IMG/VR virus record: IMGVR_UViG_3300045988_125232
Span: 1-28,227 of that record
DNA length: 28,227 nucleotides
Direction: 5' to 3' (one strand)
Source: a virus
Taxonomy: Duplodnaviria > Heunggongvirae > Uroviricota > Caudoviricetes
Under the pieces are notes generated by a model. It was not told where the DNA came from, made no database searches, and saw nothing but the letters and a program-made list of their open reading frames with translations. Position 1 is the stretch's first letter. Every line of letters starts with the position of its first letter. Shown in pieces: positions 1 to 6,116 of this stretch. A program made the position numbers and the translations under genes.

Positions 1-242
1 GGTATCTGATTCGCCCCAGTCCCCACATTCCTTTTCGCCGCTTCTCCCAAACCAACCTTTGATGGAATGGGCGCGTGCAGTCATATTGGTTGTATTAGCT
101 CGGCCCCCTGATTTTTCACATTCCCGACGGCACGCGTCACGGCGTGCCATATAAATTTATCAGCCAATAGAATTTGGTTAGAGAGATAAAAGCGGGATGC
201 ACAAAACTCTGCATTAGTTCGCAGAGGGGTGGGGAGTAATCC

Positions 243-272
243 TGATGTGATGTGATGGGATGGGATGGGATG
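243..272. repeat. Tandem pentanucleotide tract, (TGATG)x3 followed by (GGATG)x3
   Basis: Six consecutive 5-nt units read directly in the sequence, in non-coding DNA upstream of the tRNA-derived segment. Confidence 0.5.
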
Positions 273-396
273 TGTGCCAGTTTTGTGTCGCACGAGGATT
301 GTTACGATACTTCATCTTCATGCATGTGCCATTAACTTGAGGCGTGTGAATGCGGTAATGGCTATATAAAACAGTTAGTTAAATGTGGTTCTACTA

Positions 397-442
397 ATTC
401 GTAATGCGAAGGTCGTAGGTTCGACTCCTATTATCGGCACCA
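397..442 (+). other. Partial tRNA-Thr gene (3' 46 nt, anticodon loop to CCA); prophage attachment-site core
   Basis: Matches the 3' portion of an enterobacterial tRNA-Thr (thrW-type, anticodon CGU) as I recall it, ending in ...GGTTCGACTCCTATTATCGGCACCA. The upstream bases cannot form the complementary acceptor stem (GCCGATA is absent), so this is a fragment. It lies 14 nt from the integrase stop codon. Confidence 0.7.
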
Positions 443-456
443 TTTAAATCAATAAG

Positions 457-1620
457 TTACACATCATTAGTACCTTCCTTATTTCTTGACTGGGACAAAT
501 TTGGGACCGATGGGTTCAGAATCGAGTCTATTTGCCGTGCGTGTTCGGTAAGGTGATTAGGTGCGAGGTGAGCATATCGACGAACCATTTCGATAGACTC
601 CCAGCCTCCCATTTCCTGTAACACTGATAACGGGACTCCGGCTTGAACCAGCCAACTTGCCCAGGTGTGTCTCAAGTCGTGAAATCTGAAATCATCAATA
701 CCTGCTCGTCTCAGCGCCGCTTTCCAGGCTATGTTTGCGTCATACCGCATCTTCCTGACTGTTGGCGCTTTCGTTCCGTCTGGTTTGGTACAGCTTTCCT
801 TATACACAAATACCCAACGGTGATGATTCCCGATTTGTTTTTTCAATACGCGACATGCAGTATCATTCAGCGCAACGCCAATTGCGCGGTTTGATTTACT
901 CTCTTCCGGGTTTATCCATGCCACCCGGCGCTGCATGTCTATTTGTTGCCATTCAAGGTTGATGATGTTCGAGCGTCTTAAGCCTGTTGCAAGTGCAAAT
1001 TCAACAACAGACTTTAATGGCTCCGGACATTCATCAATCAGCCTTTGTGCTTCATGAGGCTCCAGCCAGCGGATCCGTTTATTCTTTGGTTGAGGCACTT
1101 TAATAATTGGTGCCTTATCCAGCATTTTCCATTCACGCTCTGCGGCTCTTAGCAGGGCCTTTATAAATGAAAGATGCGTAGCCTTCGTTGCAACGGACGC
1201 TGGTTTTGGCGTGTATTCTGGAACAGGTTTCCCTTTTTTTCTGCATGCTTCTGCCCTGAGTTTCCAGTTTTCCTCATGACGCCGGTTCGTCATTTTCTGC
1301 ATTGCTGAATAAATTTTTGATTCAGTAATGTCTCTTAGTTGCATTCCTGCGAAATGTTGAAGCCAGAATCCGATCCGGCTTTTGTCATCGTCCAGTGATT
1401 TTTTATGTGCTTTCTCTTCAAGCCACCTGACACACGCTTCCTCGAACGTTATATCAGGAATTTCACCAAGTTTGCTGACCCGCCATGCTTCAGCCTTTAG
1501 CTTGTCATGGAGTTCTGTCGCCTGCCTTTTGTCCTTTGTTCCAAGAGACTGTTTAAATCTTTTACCGTTCGGCAATGTGAAACTGGCGTACCATATTTCA
1601 CCTCTGCGGAAGAGTGACAT
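457..1620 (-). CDS. int: Tyrosine-type site-specific integrase (P22/Sf6-like)
   Basis: 387-aa ORF. The C-terminal region carries tyrosine-recombinase signatures ([10 protein letters not shown] and RRYAHL with the catalytic Tyr). The N-terminus [14 protein letters not shown] resembles P22-family Int as I recall it. Its 3' end abuts the tRNA-derived att core. Confidence 0.95.
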
Positions 1621-1847
1621 TTTCTTTCCTCTGTTATGCCATCACCCGCGCTCACCTGGACAGTATGCAGCGGAGACTGAAGCGCCGCAATGCAGGCTTG
1701 TCGTGTTGTGAGGTAAGGAGATTTATTCTTAGTGGGATCTTTGCGTGTTGCCTGCAGACGCCCTGTGCGTATCCAGTTAATGGCAGTCGGTCTGGATATC
1801 TTGAGAAAATGACAGGCCTCATCTAGCGTGAGGCTGTATGGTTCCAT
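1497..1847 (-). CDS. xis: Excisionase (Xis, P22-type)
   Basis: Internal Met of the 144-aa ORF gives a 116-aa product beginning [29 protein letters not shown], a winged-helix excisionase-like N-terminus. It has a GAGGTG Shine-Dalgarno, sits directly upstream of int and overlaps the int start, the usual xis-int arrangement. Confidence 0.75.
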
Positions 1848-2152
1848 TATTTCACCTCTTGCTGTGATATTGTTGAAAAATGAATGCCAGCTCGTTGTTG
1901 CCAGACGATCCAACCGAGAGTCATATCCCATGCCATGTATTCGTTATCGCCGTTTTTTGCTCTCCGACTATCTACTAAGCCACCGAAACGTTTTTCCATA
2001 AATAATTCATAGGATTCGCGTTCATCTGGCTCTACTTCCAGAGATAGGAGTGCGATTTCATAAGCACGGCGCTCAATATCGTCTCGCACGTCAAGGCTGC
2101 TGATACGCTCTTTGATTTCTTTAATCAGTTCTTTGTCGGTAAAAGTGGTCAT
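1847..2152 (-). CDS. Hypothetical early-left operon protein (101 aa, acidic)
   Basis: ORF translationally coupled at both ends by overlapping stop/start codons in the leftward operon; no recognisable motif. Confidence 0.55.
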   Translation of the reverse strand: MTTFTDKELIKEIKERISSLDVRDDIERRAYEIALLSLEVEPDERESYELFMEKRFGGLVDSRRAKNGDNEYMAWDMTLGWIVWQQRAGIHFSTISQQEVK

Positions 2153-2514
2153 TATGCTCCAGCCTCCGGTGCTTTTGGCATTACTGCCCAGTGAGTGATA
2201 TTGACGTTTTCAAGGTCCCCGACCTGAAATGTCCACTGCCAGTCTCCGGTTTCTTTTTGTCCCCAGGTGTACCAGAGAGAACGCCAGCCAATTAGCCAGC
2301 CTTCTCCGTTAGCATCGAATAACAAAACACTTTCATTTGCTGGTGGCAGTTCAGTTGACACTGGTATTACTTTGTTTTCCAGTGCCGCACATTTAGCTTC
2401 AAGCGCATCGAATTTACGCACCAGGTATTCAGCATCCGTTTCATTCACTTTCAGATCTCGCGGTACACATTTCCCGCGAAGAAACCCTTCCATTTCGAAA
2501 ACATTCATGCGCAT
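2152..2514 (-). CDS. Hypothetical early-left operon protein (120 aa, Trp-rich C-terminal half)
   Basis: ORF coupled to its neighbours; resembles small conserved prophage proteins of unknown function; no catalytic motif. Confidence 0.55.
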   Translation of the reverse strand: MRMNVFEMEGFLRGKCVPRDLKVNETDAEYLVRKFDALEAKCAALENKVIPVSTELPPANESVLLFDANGEGWLIGWRSLWYTWGQKETGDWQWTFQVGDLENVNITHWAVMPKAPEAGA

Positions 2515-3041
2515 TTGCGTAACTCCGATAACTCGTTAAAACGTTCCATAAACATCCCGTAGGCATGGCCTGGCGACAGTGGAATAACTTTGAACATCTC
2601 TGTTGCTGGGATACCTTCCAGTAGAGGCCAGAAAGAGCCATCATCAAGCCCGAGATCGCGGCGTTCGGTTGCCAGCATGATGAGATCGGCATATTTCACG
2701 GGCGTGCTCATAACCGGGGGTAACCCGTATTTCTCACGGATTACGGCGTCTATTTTTTCTTCCATCCGTTTATAGTCAGGAAGAAGGCGTTTCAGTTGCG
2801 CGGGGATGTCCTGACAATACGCTTCTGTTGCATCATGCATTAACGCTTCAAAGGCGAACTCTGGCGCCACAAGTTGACTGCACAGAACGGAATGCTGCGC
2901 CACGCTGTAAAAATCCGGCAAGTGTCCCGCGAAGCGGCAGATATTTGAAAGCGCACCGGCGATATCCTCGATATAAATATCGTCAATGGTGGAGTTGATA
3001 TAATTGAACTTCTTACCGGTAAGAGTCTGGATAAAACTCAT
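2505..3041 (-). CDS. HD-domain phosphohydrolase (YfbR-like 5'-deoxynucleotidase family)
   Basis: 178-aa ORF with a His...His-Asp metal-binding signature (VAQHSV ... LMHDATEAY); AAGGAG ribosome-binding site upstream of the ATG. Confidence 0.75.
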   Translation of the reverse strand: MSFIQTLTGKKFNYINSTIDDIYIEDIAGALSNICRFAGHLPDFYSVAQHSVLCSQLVAPEFAFEALMHDATEAYCQDIPAQLKRLLPDYKRMEEKIDAVIREKYGLPPVMSTPVKYADLIMLATERRDLGLDDGSFWPLLEGIPATEMFKVIPLSPGHAYGMFMERFNELSELRKCA

Positions 3042-3198
3042 CGTTAGTTCTCCTTAATTGGTGCGCTGCACCGCACGATTTTTGGTTGCACGAATCCCTC
3101 GCCATAAGGCGATTAAAAGTTTTGGTTTCGTTTCAGTAAATGCCCCATCCAGAGGCACTTAGTGCAACGGGCGGCTGCCATCGCCAGTTATTTTCCCC

Positions 3199-3283
3199 AC
3201 TCAATTGAAAGCGCGTTCCGGAGGTTTTGGACTTAACGAACTGGCACTTAATGACAAGGGACAGAACGCGCTTTCAGTTGAGT
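3199..3283. repeat. Long imperfect inverted repeat (20-bp arms, about 45-bp spacer)
   Basis: ACTCAATTGAAAGCGCGTTC and GAACGCGCTTTCAGTTGAGT are reverse complements with one mismatch, in the non-coding gap between the HD gene and the moron. Confidence 0.5.
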
Positions 3284-3424
3284 AAAAAGGTGGCTATTCA
3301 TCAGAACATTGTCGCCTTCATTAGGTTTATCTGTTGAAGATCTGTAAGCCGCTTATAAATAAGTAGATATAAGATATTAGGAAAAGAAGAAGGACGTTAT
3401 AGTTTTATTTGTGATGTGCAAAGT

Positions 3425-3455
3425 ATATTTGAATAAAACCCGCCCAGCGGGTTCT
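3425..3455 (-). terminator. Rho-independent terminator downstream of the 198-aa moron gene
   Basis: GC-rich hairpin (AACCCGC...GCGGGTT) followed on the minus strand by a U-rich tract, just past the stop codon at 3464. Confidence 0.5.
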
Positions 3456-3463
3456 AAAGTGTT

Positions 3464-4060
3464 TTAATGATTGTCGTAATAATTAATTGGCTCATCATTT
3501 TTTTGGTCTGGCATAGTTATGGACCACTTTATATTCTTTAGGCTGTTATGTTTTTTATTGACCTTAAGCTCTCTCTTTGCTTCAGAGATAATATCGTCTA
3601 GTAATACTTTTAATTTATCAAGTCTTGACTTGTGGGCATCTATCAACTCTATACTATCAAACTCCCATTGTATAAATAGATTTTCTTCATTTTCAATGAA
3701 TGAACGGATTTTATCCCCACACTCTTCTGTTAAGAATAATGAAGATAGCTCACCTATTCTACTGAGTTTTTCAAGCTCATTAGAGAAAGATTTGCTAAGG
3801 ATTTCATTTTCTTCTTTTGATTTGTAACTAAAGTAGGTTGGGAATTGTGAAGCGTGATGTAACTCATGTTTATACCAATAGTCAGCTGTGTTTTTTAGAA
3901 GATAAACACAGTCAACTAATTGCGTATACAAATCTATTCTTTTGTCCCACCATTTTTCTTTATAATAACGGCCGAGTGCATATCGCGCAGTTAAGTAAGC
4001 TGCGATTGAGCCTGTAACAAGTCCGATAATTACCTTTGATATAAGGTCATGCCAATCCAT
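3464..4060 (-). CDS. Membrane-anchored protein of unknown function (moron; candidate lysogen-expressed exclusion or abortive-infection factor)
   Basis: 198-aa ORF with one N-terminal hydrophobic helix (VIIGLVTGSIAAYLTA), then a charged, Lys/Glu-rich helical body. Visibly AT-rich compared with flanking phage genes, with its own AT-rich upstream region and its own terminator. Confidence 0.7.
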   Translation of the reverse strand: MDWHDLISKVIIGLVTGSIAAYLTARYALGRYYKEKWWDKRIDLYTQLVDCVYLLKNTADYWYKHELHHASQFPTYFSYKSKEENEILSKSFSNELEKLSRIGELSSLFLTEECGDKIRSFIENEENLFIQWEFDSIELIDAHKSRLDKLKVLLDDIISEAKRELKVNKKHNSLKNIKWSITMPDQKNDEPINYYDNH

Positions 4061-4511
4061 TTTTATTTTTCCTACATTATGTTATATAATTGTTCATATC
4101 ATACAATTGTTGAGTATAGATGTCTCGTTATTCATCAACATTTACTCCTGTTAAATTAGGGGGAGTATGTATTAAAAATATTCATCTGGGTCGTCTAAAT
4201 ATTTTTGATAAACTAATAGCAATAACACTATCAATATTGCCTGCCCTCACGTCGTTCTTGCTCTCGCGCGATTTTTAACTAAACACTAGCAGGATTTATC
4301 ATGGTGCTACGCTACATTTACTTGTAGGGAGCTAAACAGATCATTGACGCTGAAAATATTCAAATTGTTAAAGAGCGAAGCGTCCTATGGGCGTTTTGTT
4401 GCTAACGAATCATCTTGGACTTCATATGCCCCAGGCGGCTACTTCGTGGACGTCCTGCCTGTTTGTTGTTTCTCTTGGGTACATTATGTATCTCAAAGGT
4501 ACATTGTCAAG

Positions 4512-4538
4512 TATAAAAAAACCTGCCGAAGCAGGTTC
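4512..4538 (-). terminator. Rho-independent terminator after the repressor gene
   Basis: Hairpin AACCTGC-CGAA-GCAGGTT followed on the minus strand by a run of U residues, immediately downstream of the repressor stop (4550). Confidence 0.55.
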
Positions 4539-4549
4539 ATAAACATTGA

Positions 4550-5224
4550 TTAGGCTTTGATTTTGTATCTTCTTGGTTTTCCTGAGAAAATCACTGTACC
4601 AATTATAGAGCAATTACCGTTGATCTTAATGTAAGGCTCAGGCCAGTTTGGGTTTAACGCTTTGAGATAACGCTGTGTCCCATCTTCTATCAACCTTTTG
4701 AAGGTGGTTTCACCTGTATCGTGCATCAATGCAATAACGTCGTCACCGTGGCAGGCAGGTACTTCAGGATCGACAAAAATCATGTCTCCCGGGCGGTACT
4801 CATCAATCATTGAATCACCTATCACCCGCAAGATATAAGTCATTTCCCCACAGGGGACAGGGCAGGGATACGTTTCTGCTGTGCTCAAATCAACCTCAGA
4901 ATATCCAACTTCTTTCCATGCTCCGGCCTGTACCCATGATATGACAGGGACTAATGTGATTTGTTTATTAGTGATTGAAACATCAGGTTTTTTTGTGATG
5001 TTCGTTGTCTGGTGTTCTTGATCGAGCCATCCGACAGGCAGGTCGAAACATTTTTCGATGTGTCGTGCCATGCTGTCACCGATATTTTTAGTAGCACCAT
5101 CTCCCATAAACCTGCTGGTCTGGGTTGGCTCGCGATCAATCATAGTGGCAAAGGAAGAATTCCCGCCAACACCATCTCTCAGTTTTCTGGCGTTAGACCG
5201 CCGGATGTCATGGATTGTTTTCAT
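4550..5224 (-). CDS. cI: CI-type prophage repressor (HTH plus S24 LexA-like autopeptidase domain)
   Basis: 224-aa ORF. The C-terminal domain carries the Ser/Lys dyad context (VIGDSM ... FKRL) and its end (LNPNWPEPYIKINGNCSIIGTVI) resembles P22 C2 / lambda CI. Divergently arranged against the cro-like gene. Confidence 0.9.
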   Translation of the reverse strand: MKTIHDIRRSNARKLRDGVGGNSSFATMIDREPTQTSRFMGDGATKNIGDSMARHIEKCFDLPVGWLDQEHQTTNITKKPDVSITNKQITLVPVISWVQAGAWKEVGYSEVDLSTAETYPCPVPCGEMTYILRVIGDSMIDEYRPGDMIFVDPEVPACHGDDVIALMHDTGETTFKRLIEDGTQRYLKALNPNWPEPYIKINGNCSIIGTVIFSGKPRRYKIKA

Positions 5225-5239
5225 AACGAAATTAAAACC

Positions 5240-5311
5240 CTTGTACCGTTAAGGTACAAGTATCTTGAAGGTTCATTTCAATCATGTAATATGTACATCG
5301 GAGGTACATAT
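5240..5311. promoter_or_regulatory. Operator/promoter region between the repressor and cro (three dyad-symmetric sites)
   Basis: Dyads read in sequence: CTTGTACC-N5-GGTACAAG, TTGAA-N7-TTCAA and ATATGTAC-N7-GTACATAT. A TAATAT -10-like hexamer and GGAGGT ribosome-binding site precede the cro ATG. Confidence 0.6.
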
Positions 5312-5314
5312 TGT

Positions 5315-5515
5315 ATGAAAGCGTATTGGGACTCTTTAACCAAAGAACAGCAGGGCGAGTTGGCCGGAAAAGTTGGCTCAACACCTGGCTACTTACGGCT
5401 GGTTTTCAATGGCTATAAAAAAGCCAGTTTTGTGCTGGCTAAAAAACTTGAGCAATGCACGTCAGGTGCAATTACGAAATCTGACTTAAGACCGGATATC
5501 TATCCGAAAGATTAG
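5315..5515 (+). CDS. cro: Cro-like HTH regulator (YdaS/Cro family)
   Basis: 66-aa product from an internal ATG with a GGAGGT Shine-Dalgarno; HTH-like segment and conserved LRPD motif typical of YdaS-type Cro analogues. The 167-aa ORF in the track is an upstream extension through the operator region. Confidence 0.7.
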   Translation: MKAYWDSLTKEQQGELAGKVGSTPGYLRLVFNGYKKASFVLAKKLEQCTSGAITKSDLRPDIYPKD

Positions 5516-5546
5516 CAGAACACTTTCAATTTTTAACCACAGAACG

Positions 5547-6116
5547 ATGAGGCTAATCGTGGGTAAGCATCACTGGAAAATAGAAAAACAGCCTGAGTGG
5601 TACGTGAAAGCTGTCAGAAAAACTATCGCGGCGTTGCCGGGTGGTTACGCTGAAGCGGCTGACTGGCTCGATGTAACAGAAAACGCTTTATTCAACCGCC
5701 TTCGTGCAGATGGCGATCAGATTTTCCCGCTGGGATGGGCAATGGTTTTACAGCGTGCTGGTGGCACTCACTTCATTGCTGATGCTGTGGCGCAGTCTGC
5801 AAATGGCGTCTTTGTGTCTCTTCCTGACGTCGAGGATGTGGACAACGCCGATATTAACCAGCGTCTGCTGGAAGTCATTGAACAGATCGGCAGTTATTCA
5901 AAACAGATTCGTTCAGCAATCGAAGACGGTGTAGTGGAACCGCATGAGAAGACAGCAATTAACGACGAGCTGTATCTCTCAATTTCGAAGCTGCAGGAGC
6001 ATGCAGCACTTGTCTACAAAATTTTTTGCATTTCAGAAAGTAATGACGCCCGCGAGTGTGCAGCTCCGGGCGTCGTGGCGTCGATTGCTTCTGGTTGTGG
6101 AGAAACTAACGCATGA
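5547..6116 (+). CDS. Putative CII-like / YdaT-like early regulatory protein (189 aa)
   Basis: Position immediately downstream of cro, same strand; assignment by synteny only. Confidence 0.5.

What the first reader, a model, noticed from the sequence alone, without database searches (positions are those of the whole stretch)
1847..3041. Early-left three-gene block with an HD-domain phosphohydrolase
Two small proteins of unknown function and a YfbR-like HD hydrolase are translationally coupled between xis and the moron. HD hydrolases in phages may adjust nucleotide pools or degrade nucleotide second messengers, which would be relevant to counter-defence against cyclic-nucleotide-based immunity. 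That is speculative; the simplest reading is a dNMP nucleotidase.
Basis: inference. Interest (0 to 1): 0.4.

Follow-up and report, generated by a model that had tools for sequence, protein, structure and literature searches.

The report
Known prophage yfdR-yfdS-yfdT gene block
The three genes are real and intact, but they are the already described yfdR-yfdS-yfdT genes of Shigella/E. coli temperate phages, whose HD enzyme is a weak deoxynucleotidase that also binds the host replication initiator DnaA, so the finding is ordinary.

Summary
Three minus-strand genes at 2505-3041, 2152-2514 and 1847-2152 overlap by 10, 1 and 1 nt and run into xis and int.

They are not unknown. They are orthologues of E. 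coli K-12 CPS-53 yfdR, yfdS and yfdT (87/97/92% aa identity, same lengths, same overlaps). The region is 96-97.5% identical to Shigella phages SfIV, SfII and SfV. At least 80% of the block occurs in 1599 of 5426 complete E. coli genomes.

K-12 YfdR is annotated as a 5'-deoxynucleotidase. Published work shows it binds DnaA domain I and, together with YfdQ and YfdS or YfdT, inhibits oriC initiation when overexpressed. The catalytic HD residues are intact here. yfdP and yfdQ are missing, replaced by a low-GC moron.

Across relatives, the HD gene travels with yfdQ and yfdP, not with yfdS or yfdT, so the trio is a lineage-specific arrangement rather than a system. Nothing supports a counter-defence role.

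One thing does deserve attention. The untranslated region upstream of the HD gene (about 3042-3290) is a conserved multi-hairpin RNA with compensatory base changes. It is found in at least 180 viral contigs, in front of at least six unrelated genes, and has no Rfam match. Its function is unknown.

The parts
2505..3041 (-). yfdR orthologue: 178-aa HD-superfamily phosphohydrolase
   Evidence: 87% identical over all 178 aa to K-12 YfdR (b2361, '5'-deoxynucleotidase'). phrog_318 E=1e-102. R36, H50, H69, D70, E73, D78 and D119 are invariant or near-invariant across the family. Family profile against PDB: 2gz4 E=2.7e-29, YfbR 2paq E=2.4e-4. The first ~60 codons are mosaic, with 53-87% nt identity to K-12 against 93-97% further on.
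2152..2514 (-). yfdS orthologue: 120 aa, short N-terminal helix plus C-terminal DUF551
   Evidence: 97% identical to K-12 YfdS. DUF551 scores 22.2 bits against a cut-off of 22. phrog_583 E=3e-82. The DUF551 part is fused to Ead/Ea22-like or other N-termini in relatives. The AlphaFold model is unusable, pLDDT 54.
1847..2152 (-). yfdT orthologue: 101 aa, predicted all-helical, no Pfam family
   Evidence: 92% identical to K-12 YfdT. phrog_660 E=7e-29. The N-terminal ~42 aa are shared with other mosaic proteins; the conserved core is residues ~43-90. The model has pLDDT 61.
1497..1847 (-). excisionase (xis), start overlapping the yfdT stop (TAATG)
   Evidence: HTH_17 E=7e-9, TIGR01764, phrog_2907 excisionase. 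The RefSeq CDS has the same coordinates.
457..1620 (-). tyrosine integrase, overlapping the xis 3' end; last gene of the leftward chain
   Evidence: ORF. RefSeq annotates a 'tyrosine-type recombinase/integrase'. SfII/SfIV int is 96-97% identical at DNA level.
3042..3290 (-). Conserved structured untranslated leader of the block. Elements: long hairpin B (arms 3199-3218 / 3264-3283), hairpin C (3166-3185), hairpin H1 (stem 3137-3161), hairpin H2 (3099-3112) followed by the invariant GGGAUUCG..CAACCAAAA (3077-3098), hairpin H3 (3061-3076), and SD ~3048-3053.
   Evidence: The proximal part is conserved in K-12, SfII, cdtI, ST64B, mEp390 and others. At least 120 plus 62 viral contigs carry it. Covariation is reported. 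There is one copy per phage. No Rfam match. Whole-region fold z=-2.8.
3437..3460 (-). Intrinsic terminator directly after the moron, upstream of the leader
   Evidence: AACCCGC-UGG-GCGGGUU followed by UUAUU; -13.6 kcal/mol, z=-3.6.
3464..4060 (-). Low-GC moron (198 aa, hydrophobic N-terminus noted by eye) in the place where relatives carry yfdP-yfdQ
   Evidence: GC 0.32-0.33 against about 0.46-0.50 in the flanks. phrog_17948, unknown function. No Pfam, NCBIfam or PADLOC family. yfdP and yfdQ are absent from the window but lie upstream of yfdR in K-12, cdtI, 2H10, ST64B and phiNP.
4467..4510 (-). pL-like promoter with two 17-mer operators; the probable origin of the leftward early transcript
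   Evidence: TTGACA-16-CATAAT, 11 of 12 matches. Operator family TGTAyC-N5-GGTACA at 4467-4483 and 4487-4503, and also at 5242-5308 between the cI-like and cro-like genes.

Best explanation
This is the distal part of the early-left (pL) operon of an SfII/SfIV/SfV/CPS-53-type temperate phage: yfdR, yfdS, yfdT, xis, int.

Shown here. The three proteins are orthologues of K-12 YfdR, YfdS and YfdT. The reading frames are chained by overlapping stop and start codons. The HD active-site residues are intact. The genes are under purifying selection.

Shown by others for the K-12 orthologues. YfdR is a phosphohydrolase with low nucleotide affinity. Purified YfdR binds DnaA domain I in a Phe46-dependent way and competes moderately with DiaA and DnaB. 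Extra copies of yfdQ + yfdR + (yfdS or yfdT) inhibit initiation at oriC.

Inferred. The cI-like repressor keeps the block silent in the lysogen. On induction or infection, transcription from pL passes the terminator and the structured leader, and the five proteins are made by coupled translation. YfdR then damps new rounds of host chromosome initiation by occupying the DnaB/DiaA site on DnaA. Its weak (d)NMP phosphatase activity is a secondary or ancestral function. YfdS and YfdT are interchangeable mosaic accessory proteins, not obligate partners. Because yfdQ is missing here, the effect on DnaA may be weaker than in K-12 experiments.
For: Orthology and synteny.
Identical block annotated in RefSeq genomes at thrW.
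96-97.5% DNA identity to SfIV, SfII and SfV.
Same gene order cI ... HD-DUF551-yfdT-xis-int in SfII.
Catalytic residues conserved, including against YfbR.
Purifying selection, dN/dS 0.12-0.15.
pL and operators.
DnaA binding, gene requirements and the authors' phage-takeover suggestion: PMC4776307 and the review PMC5448010.
Nucleotidase annotation and the low-affinity statement.
Against: The DnaA effect was seen only on overexpression. Deleting yfdQRST had no initiation phenotype, and the authors themselves allow that it may be an artefact.

yfdQ was required for the phenotype and is absent from this window.

The HD family is very large: 15,043 cluster representatives at E<=1e-10. It occurs in virulent phages of Caulobacter, Bacillus and Stenotrophomonas and in many bacterial phyla. 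That breadth argues for a general enzymatic role rather than a DnaA-specific one.

The N-terminal 60 residues differ from K-12 YfdR, and the DnaA-binding surface has not been mapped.

A canonical terminator lies between pL and the block, and no sigma-70-like promoter was found after it. How the block is transcribed is therefore not established.
Confidence: 0.5

Rival explanations
1. YfdR is purely a nucleotide-pool enzyme. It is a metal-dependent 5'-(deoxy)nucleotidase that dephosphorylates dNMPs or NMPs, or an unidentified modified or damaged nucleotide, during phage development. DnaA binding is an overexpression artefact.
For: All HD and YfbR-type catalytic residues are conserved. K-12 yfdR is annotated as a 5'-deoxynucleotidase. 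The family is huge and present in unrelated virulent phages and many phyla. The authors concede a possible artefact.
Against: [quoted passage not shown] Deleting yfdR did not change CMP accumulation in an engineered strain. Direct, Phe46-specific binding of purified YfdR to DnaA was shown.
Confidence: 0.3
2. The HD protein is a counter-defence enzyme that degrades signalling nucleotides (cyclic oligonucleotides, cADPR isomers, (p)ppGpp) and so blocks CBASS-, Thoeris- or Pycsar-type immunity.
For: Only circumstantial. The gene sits in an accessory, mosaic region next to a moron. The true substrate is unsettled.
Against: No match to any PADLOC model. Searches found no paper giving this family an anti-defence role. 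The residues shared with YfbR are its catalytic HD-core residues, and YfbR is a 5'-monophosphate phosphatase; whether they define a monophosphate pocket rests on my recollection of the YfbR structure paper, which I could not read. Its conserved neighbours elsewhere are yfdP and yfdQ, not known anti-defence genes.
Confidence: 0.04
3. The three proteins form one obligate three-component system, a YfdR-YfdS-YfdT complex.
For: The stop-start overlaps are tight and conserved, and identical in K-12. The trio is present in about 1600 E. coli genomes. YfdS or YfdT was needed for the K-12 phenotype.
Against: Among 54 viral loci with an HD homologue, 42 have yfdQ and 37 have yfdP, but only 3 have yfdS and 2 have yfdT. 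Among 77 species-representative genomes, 4 and 2 do. In cdtI, 2H10, ST64B, Eeyore and YeP3, other genes follow the HD gene. S and T are domain mosaics. The paper's pull-downs suggest that YfdQ, YfdS and YfdT have no high affinity for YfdR or DnaA. S and T substitute for each other.
Confidence: 0.08
4. The block is kept mainly for the benefit of the lysogen (stress tolerance), not for lytic growth.
For: Noguchi and Katayama cite Wang et al. 2010 for the finding that deleting CPS-53, yfdQ or yfdS increases H2O2 or acid sensitivity. The genes are under purifying selection even in the decayed K-12 prophage.
Against: The block lies behind a repressor-controlled pL and a terminator, so little expression is expected in a lysogen. 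It is retained in fully functional phages such as SfII, SfIV and SfV.
Confidence: 0.08

Closest known systems
E. coli K-12 CPS-53 (KpLE1) yfdR-yfdS-yfdT (b2361-b2363)
   Same: Same three proteins (87/97/92% identity) with the same lengths (178/120/101 aa). Same 10-nt and 1-nt overlaps, and the same position just before the excisionase. yfdM, yfdN and yfdO homologues are also present in the window.
   Different: K-12 has yfdP-yfdQ directly upstream; here a low-GC moron takes their place. The first ~60 codons of yfdR and its leader belong to a different (ST64B/mEp390-like) sequence type. CPS-53 is decayed and sits at argW. The window's closest E. coli relatives sit at thrW and look intact.
Shigella serotype-converting phages SfII, SfIV, SfV (the SfII_32-34 block; SfV 'orf29-31' as cited by Noguchi and Katayama)
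   Same: 96-97.5% DNA identity over int, xis, the block, the repressor and the replication genes. The gene order is identical in SfII. Their genome papers call these ORFs hypothetical.
   Different: They carry small ORFs (SfII) or a DUF2303 yfdQ homologue (SfIV, by its annotation) upstream of the HD gene instead of this moron.
E. coli YfbR, 5'-deoxynucleotidase (PDB 2paq)
   Same: HD-superfamily core, with the HD dyad, the following Glu and Asp, the first His and the N-terminal Arg all aligned. hhalign probability 92.8%.
   Different: Only about 21% identity, confined to ~65 columns. Scores are below the Pfam PF12917 and NCBIfam NF003009 cut-offs. YfbR is a chromosomal housekeeping gene. [quoted passage not shown]
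Agrobacterium Atu1052 (PDB 2gz4)
   Same: The closest solved relative; it aligns over nearly the full length (E=3.7e-13 with the single sequence, 2.7e-29 with the family profile).
   Different: It is deposited as a hypothetical protein, so it gives the fold but no function.
Other proteins that act on DnaA: lambda P, B. subtilis SirA, E. coli DiaA, Dps, L2
   Same: Works alike. YfdR binds DnaA domain I at the Phe46 patch used by DiaA and DnaB, as SirA does at Phe49 in Bacillus. Lambda P is the precedent for a phage protein that inhibits DnaA.
   Different: I know of no sequence relationship to any of them, and none was tested here. YfdR has an enzyme fold. Lambda P binds domain III.
Phage T5 Dmp (deoxynucleoside-5'-monophosphatase)
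   Same: Same functional label in phage annotation.
   Different: No detectable sequence similarity (BLASTP E=50). At most an analogue, not a homologue.

Membership tests
YfdR orthologue group (CPS-53 / Sf-phage HD protein) | Full-length, high-identity match to K-12 YfdR | tested here: met
   154 of 178 residues identical, no gaps, E=3e-118.
YfdR orthologue group (CPS-53 / Sf-phage HD protein) | Conserved neighbourhood yfdR-yfdS-yfdT-xis with the same overlaps | tested here: met
YfdR orthologue group (CPS-53 / Sf-phage HD protein) | Binds DnaA domain I (Phe46) and inhibits oriC initiation | not testable with these tools
   Known only for the K-12 protein (PMC4776307). yfdQ, which that phenotype required, is absent here.
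YfdR orthologue group (CPS-53 / Sf-phage HD protein) | 5'-(deoxy)nucleotidase activity | not testable with these tools
   Rests on the K-12 annotation and on second-hand statements. The primary paper (Zimmerman et al. 2008) is not held in the library.
HD-domain metal-dependent phosphohydrolase superfamily | H...HD...D metal-binding motif | tested here: met
   H50, H69-D70 and D119 are invariant or near-invariant in 29 family members. They align with the YfbR motif.
YfbR-like 5'-deoxynucleotidase (Pfam PF12917; NCBIfam NF003009 equivalog) | Score at or above the curated family cut-off | tested here: not met
   PF12917: 18.7 bits against 25.9. NF003009: 12.9 bits against 122. A distant relative only.
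DUF551 (PF04448), for the 120-aa protein | Score at or above the Pfam gathering cut-off | tested here: met
   22.2 bits against 22.0, residues 50-117, so marginal. Supported by DUF551-annotated homologues.
Known anti-phage defence systems (PADLOC) | Match to any defence-system protein model | tested here: not met
   No hits for the three proteins or the moron at E<=0.1.
Anti-CBASS / anti-Thoeris / anti-Pycsar nucleotide-degrading enzymes (Acb1, Apyc1 and the like) | Homology to a known member, or hydrolysis of signalling nucleotides | not tested
   No anti-defence profile library was available. Literature searches found nothing for this family.
T5 Dmp-type deoxynucleoside monophosphatase | Sequence homology to T5 Dmp | tested here: not met
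   BLASTP E=50.
Rfam RNA families (for the upstream leader) | Match to any of 4227 covariance models at E<=1 | tested here: not met
   No match in window 1-6000.
nut/put-type antitermination sites (for the upstream leader) | Paired copies in the left and right early operons, and similarity to HK022 put | tested here: not met
   The covariance model R1 finds one copy per phage and nothing in the HK022 early region. Only the proximal 70-nt core was modelled.

The most novel reading that the evidence does not exclude
The conserved, multi-hairpin untranslated RNA immediately upstream of the HD gene (window about 3042-3290) is a previously undescribed cis-acting regulatory RNA of temperate enterobacterial phages. 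It would control expression of the distal early-left genes (here yfdRST-xis-int) that lie behind an intrinsic terminator. Possible modes are RNA-mediated antitermination, RNase-dependent processing or stabilisation, or a structural switch: 'AAACG' can pair either upstream or with the invariant GGGAUUCGU. The evidence does not exclude this. It also shows neither the function nor that the element is undescribed in the literature.
Probability: 0.3. Interest if true: 0.55.

Novelty: already known. Interest (0 to 1): 0.15.

Why it matters
As a gene finding it matters little. It re-identifies a common, named prophage module found in about 30% of complete E. coli genomes, whose HD protein already has an assigned activity and a published interaction with DnaA.

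Two smaller points have value. First, the comparative data show that the conserved partners of yfdR are yfdP and yfdQ, not yfdS and yfdT. This prophage and SfII are natural 'yfdQ-less' variants, which is useful for anyone testing whether DnaA inhibition is the real function. Second, the block's upstream leader is a widespread structured RNA with covariation and no Rfam family. If it regulates passage of early-left transcription into xis and int, it would bear on how N-less lambdoid phages control that operon.

Tried and rejected
1. AlphaFold2 models of the two small proteins came out at pLDDT 54 and 61. They are too poor for fold searches, so none were run.

2. PDB sequence searches for YfdS and YfdT found nothing meaningful.

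3. The primary biochemical paper on YfdR and YfbR (Zimmerman et al. 2008) is not held in the library. The enzymology is therefore second-hand.

4. I expected T5 Dmp to be the source of the PHROG label and a homologue. BLASTP shows no similarity.

5. Leader as a palindromic operator pair (GAAnGCGCnTTC): only the two arms of hairpin B match, no more than chance. G-U pairs and compensatory changes favour RNA structure.

6. Leader as a sigma-70 promoter, a CII-type site or a sigma-54 site: inspected by eye and, with no convincing match.

7. Leader as a small ORF across hairpins C and H1: rejected, because the start codon is replaced by ATT in variants that keep the base pairing.

8. Leader as a repeated element (REP/ERIC-like): rejected, one copy per genome in only 25 E. 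coli genomes.

9. A possible pseudoknot between the U-rich internal loop and the A-rich tail was considered but not tested. The register is not conserved in the K-12-type variant.

10. The P1 helix register is ambiguous between leader subtypes. RNAalifold prefers pairing of 'AAACG' with upstream 'CGUUU'. P1 should be treated as tentative.

11. Literature searches for anti-defence roles of HD or YfbR-like phage proteins, and for HK639-type antitermination, gave nothing usable.
Full report
OBSERVATION

The window region 1847-3041 holds three minus-strand ORFs: 2505..3041 (178 aa), 2152..2514 (120 aa) and 1847..2152 (101 aa). Reading the sequence directly:
- The first stop overlaps the second start by 10 nt.
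- The second stop and third start share TAATG (2150-2154).
- The third stop and the start of the next gene share TAATG (1845-1849).
- Each start has a GGAG-type ribosome-binding site.

The next gene (1497-1847) is an excisionase (HTH_17, TIGR01764, phrog_2907). It overlaps the integrase ORF at 457-1620. RefSeq annotates exactly these CDSs in E. coli genomes that are 100% identical over 1600-3500.

CONTEXT

Upstream, at higher coordinates, lie in turn:
- a 420-nt untranslated stretch;
- an intrinsic terminator (3437-3460);
- a 198-aa gene with 32-33% GC (3464-4060);
- a strong promoter match, TTGACA-16-CATAAT, at 4510..4483 on the minus strand. It overlaps two copies of a 17-mer, TGTAyC-N5-GGTACA, which recurs three times between the LexA-like repressor gene (4550-5224) and the cro-like gene.

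This is a pL/OL-pR/OR layout, so 'early-left' is justified.

The first 8 kb are 96-97.5% identical to the Shigella serotype-converting phages SfIV, SfII and SfV. In E. coli E7476 an identical copy sits next to tRNA-Thr (thrW) after proA. In the window itself, only the last ~46 nt of that tRNA are present. Positions 1-396 resemble the far end of such phages, so the window is in an attP-like configuration.

IDENTITY

E. coli K-12 carries, in the cryptic prophage CPS-53, the genes yfdR (537 bp, '5'-deoxynucleotidase'), yfdS (363 bp) and yfdT (306 bp). They have the same 10-nt and 1-nt overlaps and sit just before the excisionase torI. The window proteins are 87%, 97% and 92% identical to them over their full lengths. 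yfdM, yfdN and yfdO homologues are also in the window. K-12 'ypdJ' matches the 5' part of the long xis ORF here.

At least 80% of the block occurs in 1599 of 5426 complete E. coli genomes, and parts of it in 3357. dN/dS against K-12 is 0.13, 0.12 and 0.15. The block is therefore a common, named and conserved prophage module.

WHAT IS KNOWN ABOUT IT

Noguchi and Katayama (PMC4776307) isolated yfdQ-yfdR-yfdS-yfdT as a multicopy suppressor of over-initiation in hda-185. Their findings:
- The minimal set was yfdQ + yfdR + (yfdS or yfdT).
- Extra copies inhibited initiation in several backgrounds.
- Purified YfdR bound DnaA in a Phe46-dependent manner and moderately competed with DiaA and DnaB.
- Deleting the genes had no phenotype.
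- The authors allow that the overexpression effect may be an artefact.
- They suggest an original role in phage growth, by analogy with lambda P, and note homologues in SfV.

They also state that YfdR is a structural homologue of the dNMP phosphatase YfbR but with much lower nucleotide affinities. I could not read the primary paper. A metabolic-engineering paper lists yfdR as a reported CMP phosphatase whose deletion had no effect. A review lists YfdR among the DnaA domain I binders that inhibit initiation. The SfIV genome paper calls the corresponding ORFs hypothetical.

THE HD PROTEIN

Pfam and NCBIfam give only sub-threshold matches to YfbR-like models. PHROGs places it in phrog_318 (E=1e-102).

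A family alignment shows H50, D78, K84 and E126 invariant, and R36, H69-D70, E73, E94 and D119 nearly so. YfbR aligns over the HD core. hhalign against YfbR gives 92.8% probability over 65 columns. A family profile finds PDB 2gz4 (Atu1052, a hypothetical protein) at 2.7e-29 and YfbR (2paq) at 2.4e-4. The protein is thus a catalytically competent-looking HD phosphohydrolase, distantly related to YfbR.

T5 Dmp carries the same functional label in phage annotation but is not detectably related.

The family is very large: 22,330 cluster representatives at E<=1e-3 and 15,043 at E<=1e-10. It occurs in temperate and virulent phages of many hosts and in many bacterial phyla.

Relative to K-12, the first ~60 codons are of a different sequence type (53-87% nt identity against 93-97% afterwards). 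The E. coli megablast matches also stop 57-75 nt short of the 5' end. A mosaic junction therefore lies inside the gene.

THE TWO SMALL PROTEINS

YfdS has a short N-terminal helical segment and a C-terminal DUF551 domain that just reaches the Pfam cut-off. In relatives the same DUF551 part is joined to Ead/Ea22-like or other N-termini (see also PMC10834534).

YfdT has a variable N-terminal ~42 residues and a conserved core, DER..YE.FM..RFG..VD.RRAKNGDNEYMAWDM.LGWIVWQ, which also occurs fused to DUF551.

Neither has a solved relative. AlphaFold models were of low confidence. None of the proteins matches a defence-system model.

IS IT A THREE-GENE SYSTEM?

No.
- Among 54 viral loci encoding an HD homologue, 42 also encode YfdQ and 37 YfdP, but only 3 encode YfdS and 2 YfdT.
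- Among 77 species-representative genomes, the numbers are 4, 4, 4 and 2.
- In cdtI, 2H10, ST64B, phiNP, Eeyore and YeP3, different genes follow the HD gene.

The trio is an E. coli/Shigella-lineage arrangement of a widespread enzyme gene with two mosaic accessory genes. In this window the usual upstream partners yfdP and yfdQ are absent, and a low-GC moron stands in their place, as small ORFs do in SfII.

MOST LIKELY MECHANISM

The block is silent in the lysogen and is expressed from pL on induction, by coupled translation with xis and int. I favour the following, with moderate confidence. YfdR acts as a host-takeover factor that occupies the DiaA/DnaB-binding patch of DnaA domain I. Its weak (d)NMP phosphatase activity is secondary or ancestral.

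The main rival is a purely enzymatic role, and the breadth of the family supports it. The counter-defence idea has no positive evidence.

How transcription reaches the block past the terminator at 3437-3460 is open. No sigma-70-like site was found between the terminator and the HD gene.

AN UNEXPECTED FEATURE: THE LEADER

The ~125 nt before the HD start codon are conserved in K-12, SfII, cdtI, ST64B and 2H10. More divergent forms occur in Serratia, Ewingella, Klebsiella, Citrobacter and Pantoea phages.

The core is a 5-bp hairpin (H2) followed by a near-invariant GGGAUUCG..CAACCAAAA tract. H2 is 98.9% paired in 38 sequences, with CG<->UA (7), GC<->AU (2) and GU (5) variants.

A variant pattern found 62 more, confirmed by a covariance model. 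The element precedes at least six unrelated first genes, including the HD gene, a coiled-coil/ParB pair as in mEp390, and a small gene as in Pantoea phage AH07. It is therefore a portable operon element and not an HD-specific riboswitch.

In the window, in mEp390 and in at least 43 viral loci, the structured region extends a further ~150 nt upstream. In those relatives it directly follows an intrinsic terminator. RNAalifold on 25 sequences predicts 41 pairs, with compensatory changes in:
- a long hairpin B (UA<->CG 7);
- hairpin C (GC<->AU 7);
- an extended H1 (UA<->CG 6);
- H2.

A small ORF across C and H1 is not conserved, whereas the pairing is. There is one copy per phage, none in the HK022 early region, no Rfam match, and only 25 E. 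coli genomes carry the distal part. The register of a proposed helix P1 is ambiguous.

I cannot assign a function. The candidates are RNA-mediated antitermination, processing or stability control, or a translational switch.

VERDICT

Its interest is low. The structured leader is the only part that may be new, and I report it as a lead.

Noticed in passing
window 3042-3290 (minus strand): A conserved multi-hairpin untranslated RNA lies upstream of the HD gene: hairpins B, C, H1, H2 and H3, plus the invariant GGGAUUCG..CAACCAAAA tract. It shows compensatory base changes and is present in at least 180 viral contigs, in front of at least six unrelated genes. There is one copy per phage and no Rfam family. 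Function unknown.
   Followed up: partly
window 3464-4060 (minus strand), terminator 3437-3460: A low-GC (32-33%) 198-aa gene with a hydrophobic N-terminus (noted by eye) and its own intrinsic terminator occupies the place of yfdP-yfdQ. It matches only phrog_17948 (unknown function). It has distant (~30% identity) relatives in two Enterobacter and Serratia phages, and no Pfam, NCBIfam or PADLOC match.
   Followed up: partly
window 4467-4510 and 5242-5308: An operator family TGTAyC-N5-GGTACA has two copies over a near-consensus leftward promoter and three copies between the LexA-like repressor and the cro-like gene. A terminator-like hairpin (4519-4538) follows the repressor gene.
   Followed up: partly
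window 1-456: Only the 3' ~46 nt of tRNA-Thr (thrW) are present, and ARAGORN finds no tRNA. Positions 1-396 do not match the proA-thrW side. They match DNA next to 'SOS response-associated peptidase / tail fiber assembly' genes. The window is therefore in an attP-like (phage or circular) configuration, or sits next to another phage element, unlike the otherwise identical prophage in strain E7476.
   Followed up: partly
window 1794-1931 (minus strand); L002 12095-12235: K-12 'ypdJ' (46 aa) is 83% identical to the start of the long ORF 1497..1931, which contains xis and overlaps the 3' end of the yfdT orthologue. ypdJ therefore looks like the remnant of this excisionase region in the decayed CPS-53 prophage.
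   Followed up: no
window 2860-3041: A mosaic junction lies inside the HD gene. The first ~60 codons and the leader are of an ST64B/mEp390-like type (53-87% nt identity to K-12). The rest of the gene is 93-97% identical to K-12 yfdR.
   Followed up: partly
window 2996-3085 (plus strand): By eye, a perfect extended -10 (TGATATAAT, 2996-3004) lies on the strand antisense to the HD gene's 5' end. About 55 nt downstream is hairpin H3 read on the plus strand, with a T-run (3059-3085, listed as terminator-like). Together they could give a ~70-nt antisense RNA over the HD ribosome-binding site. The -10 is not conserved in K-12, so this may be chance.
   Followed up: no
L006 (phage mEp390) 2994-3503: The RefSeq CDS gp35 of mEp390 starts at a TTG/GTG inside the conserved structured leader. 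The conserved ATG with a GGAG site at 3145 is the more likely start, so the annotated N-terminal ~50 residues are probably untranslated leader.
   Followed up: partly
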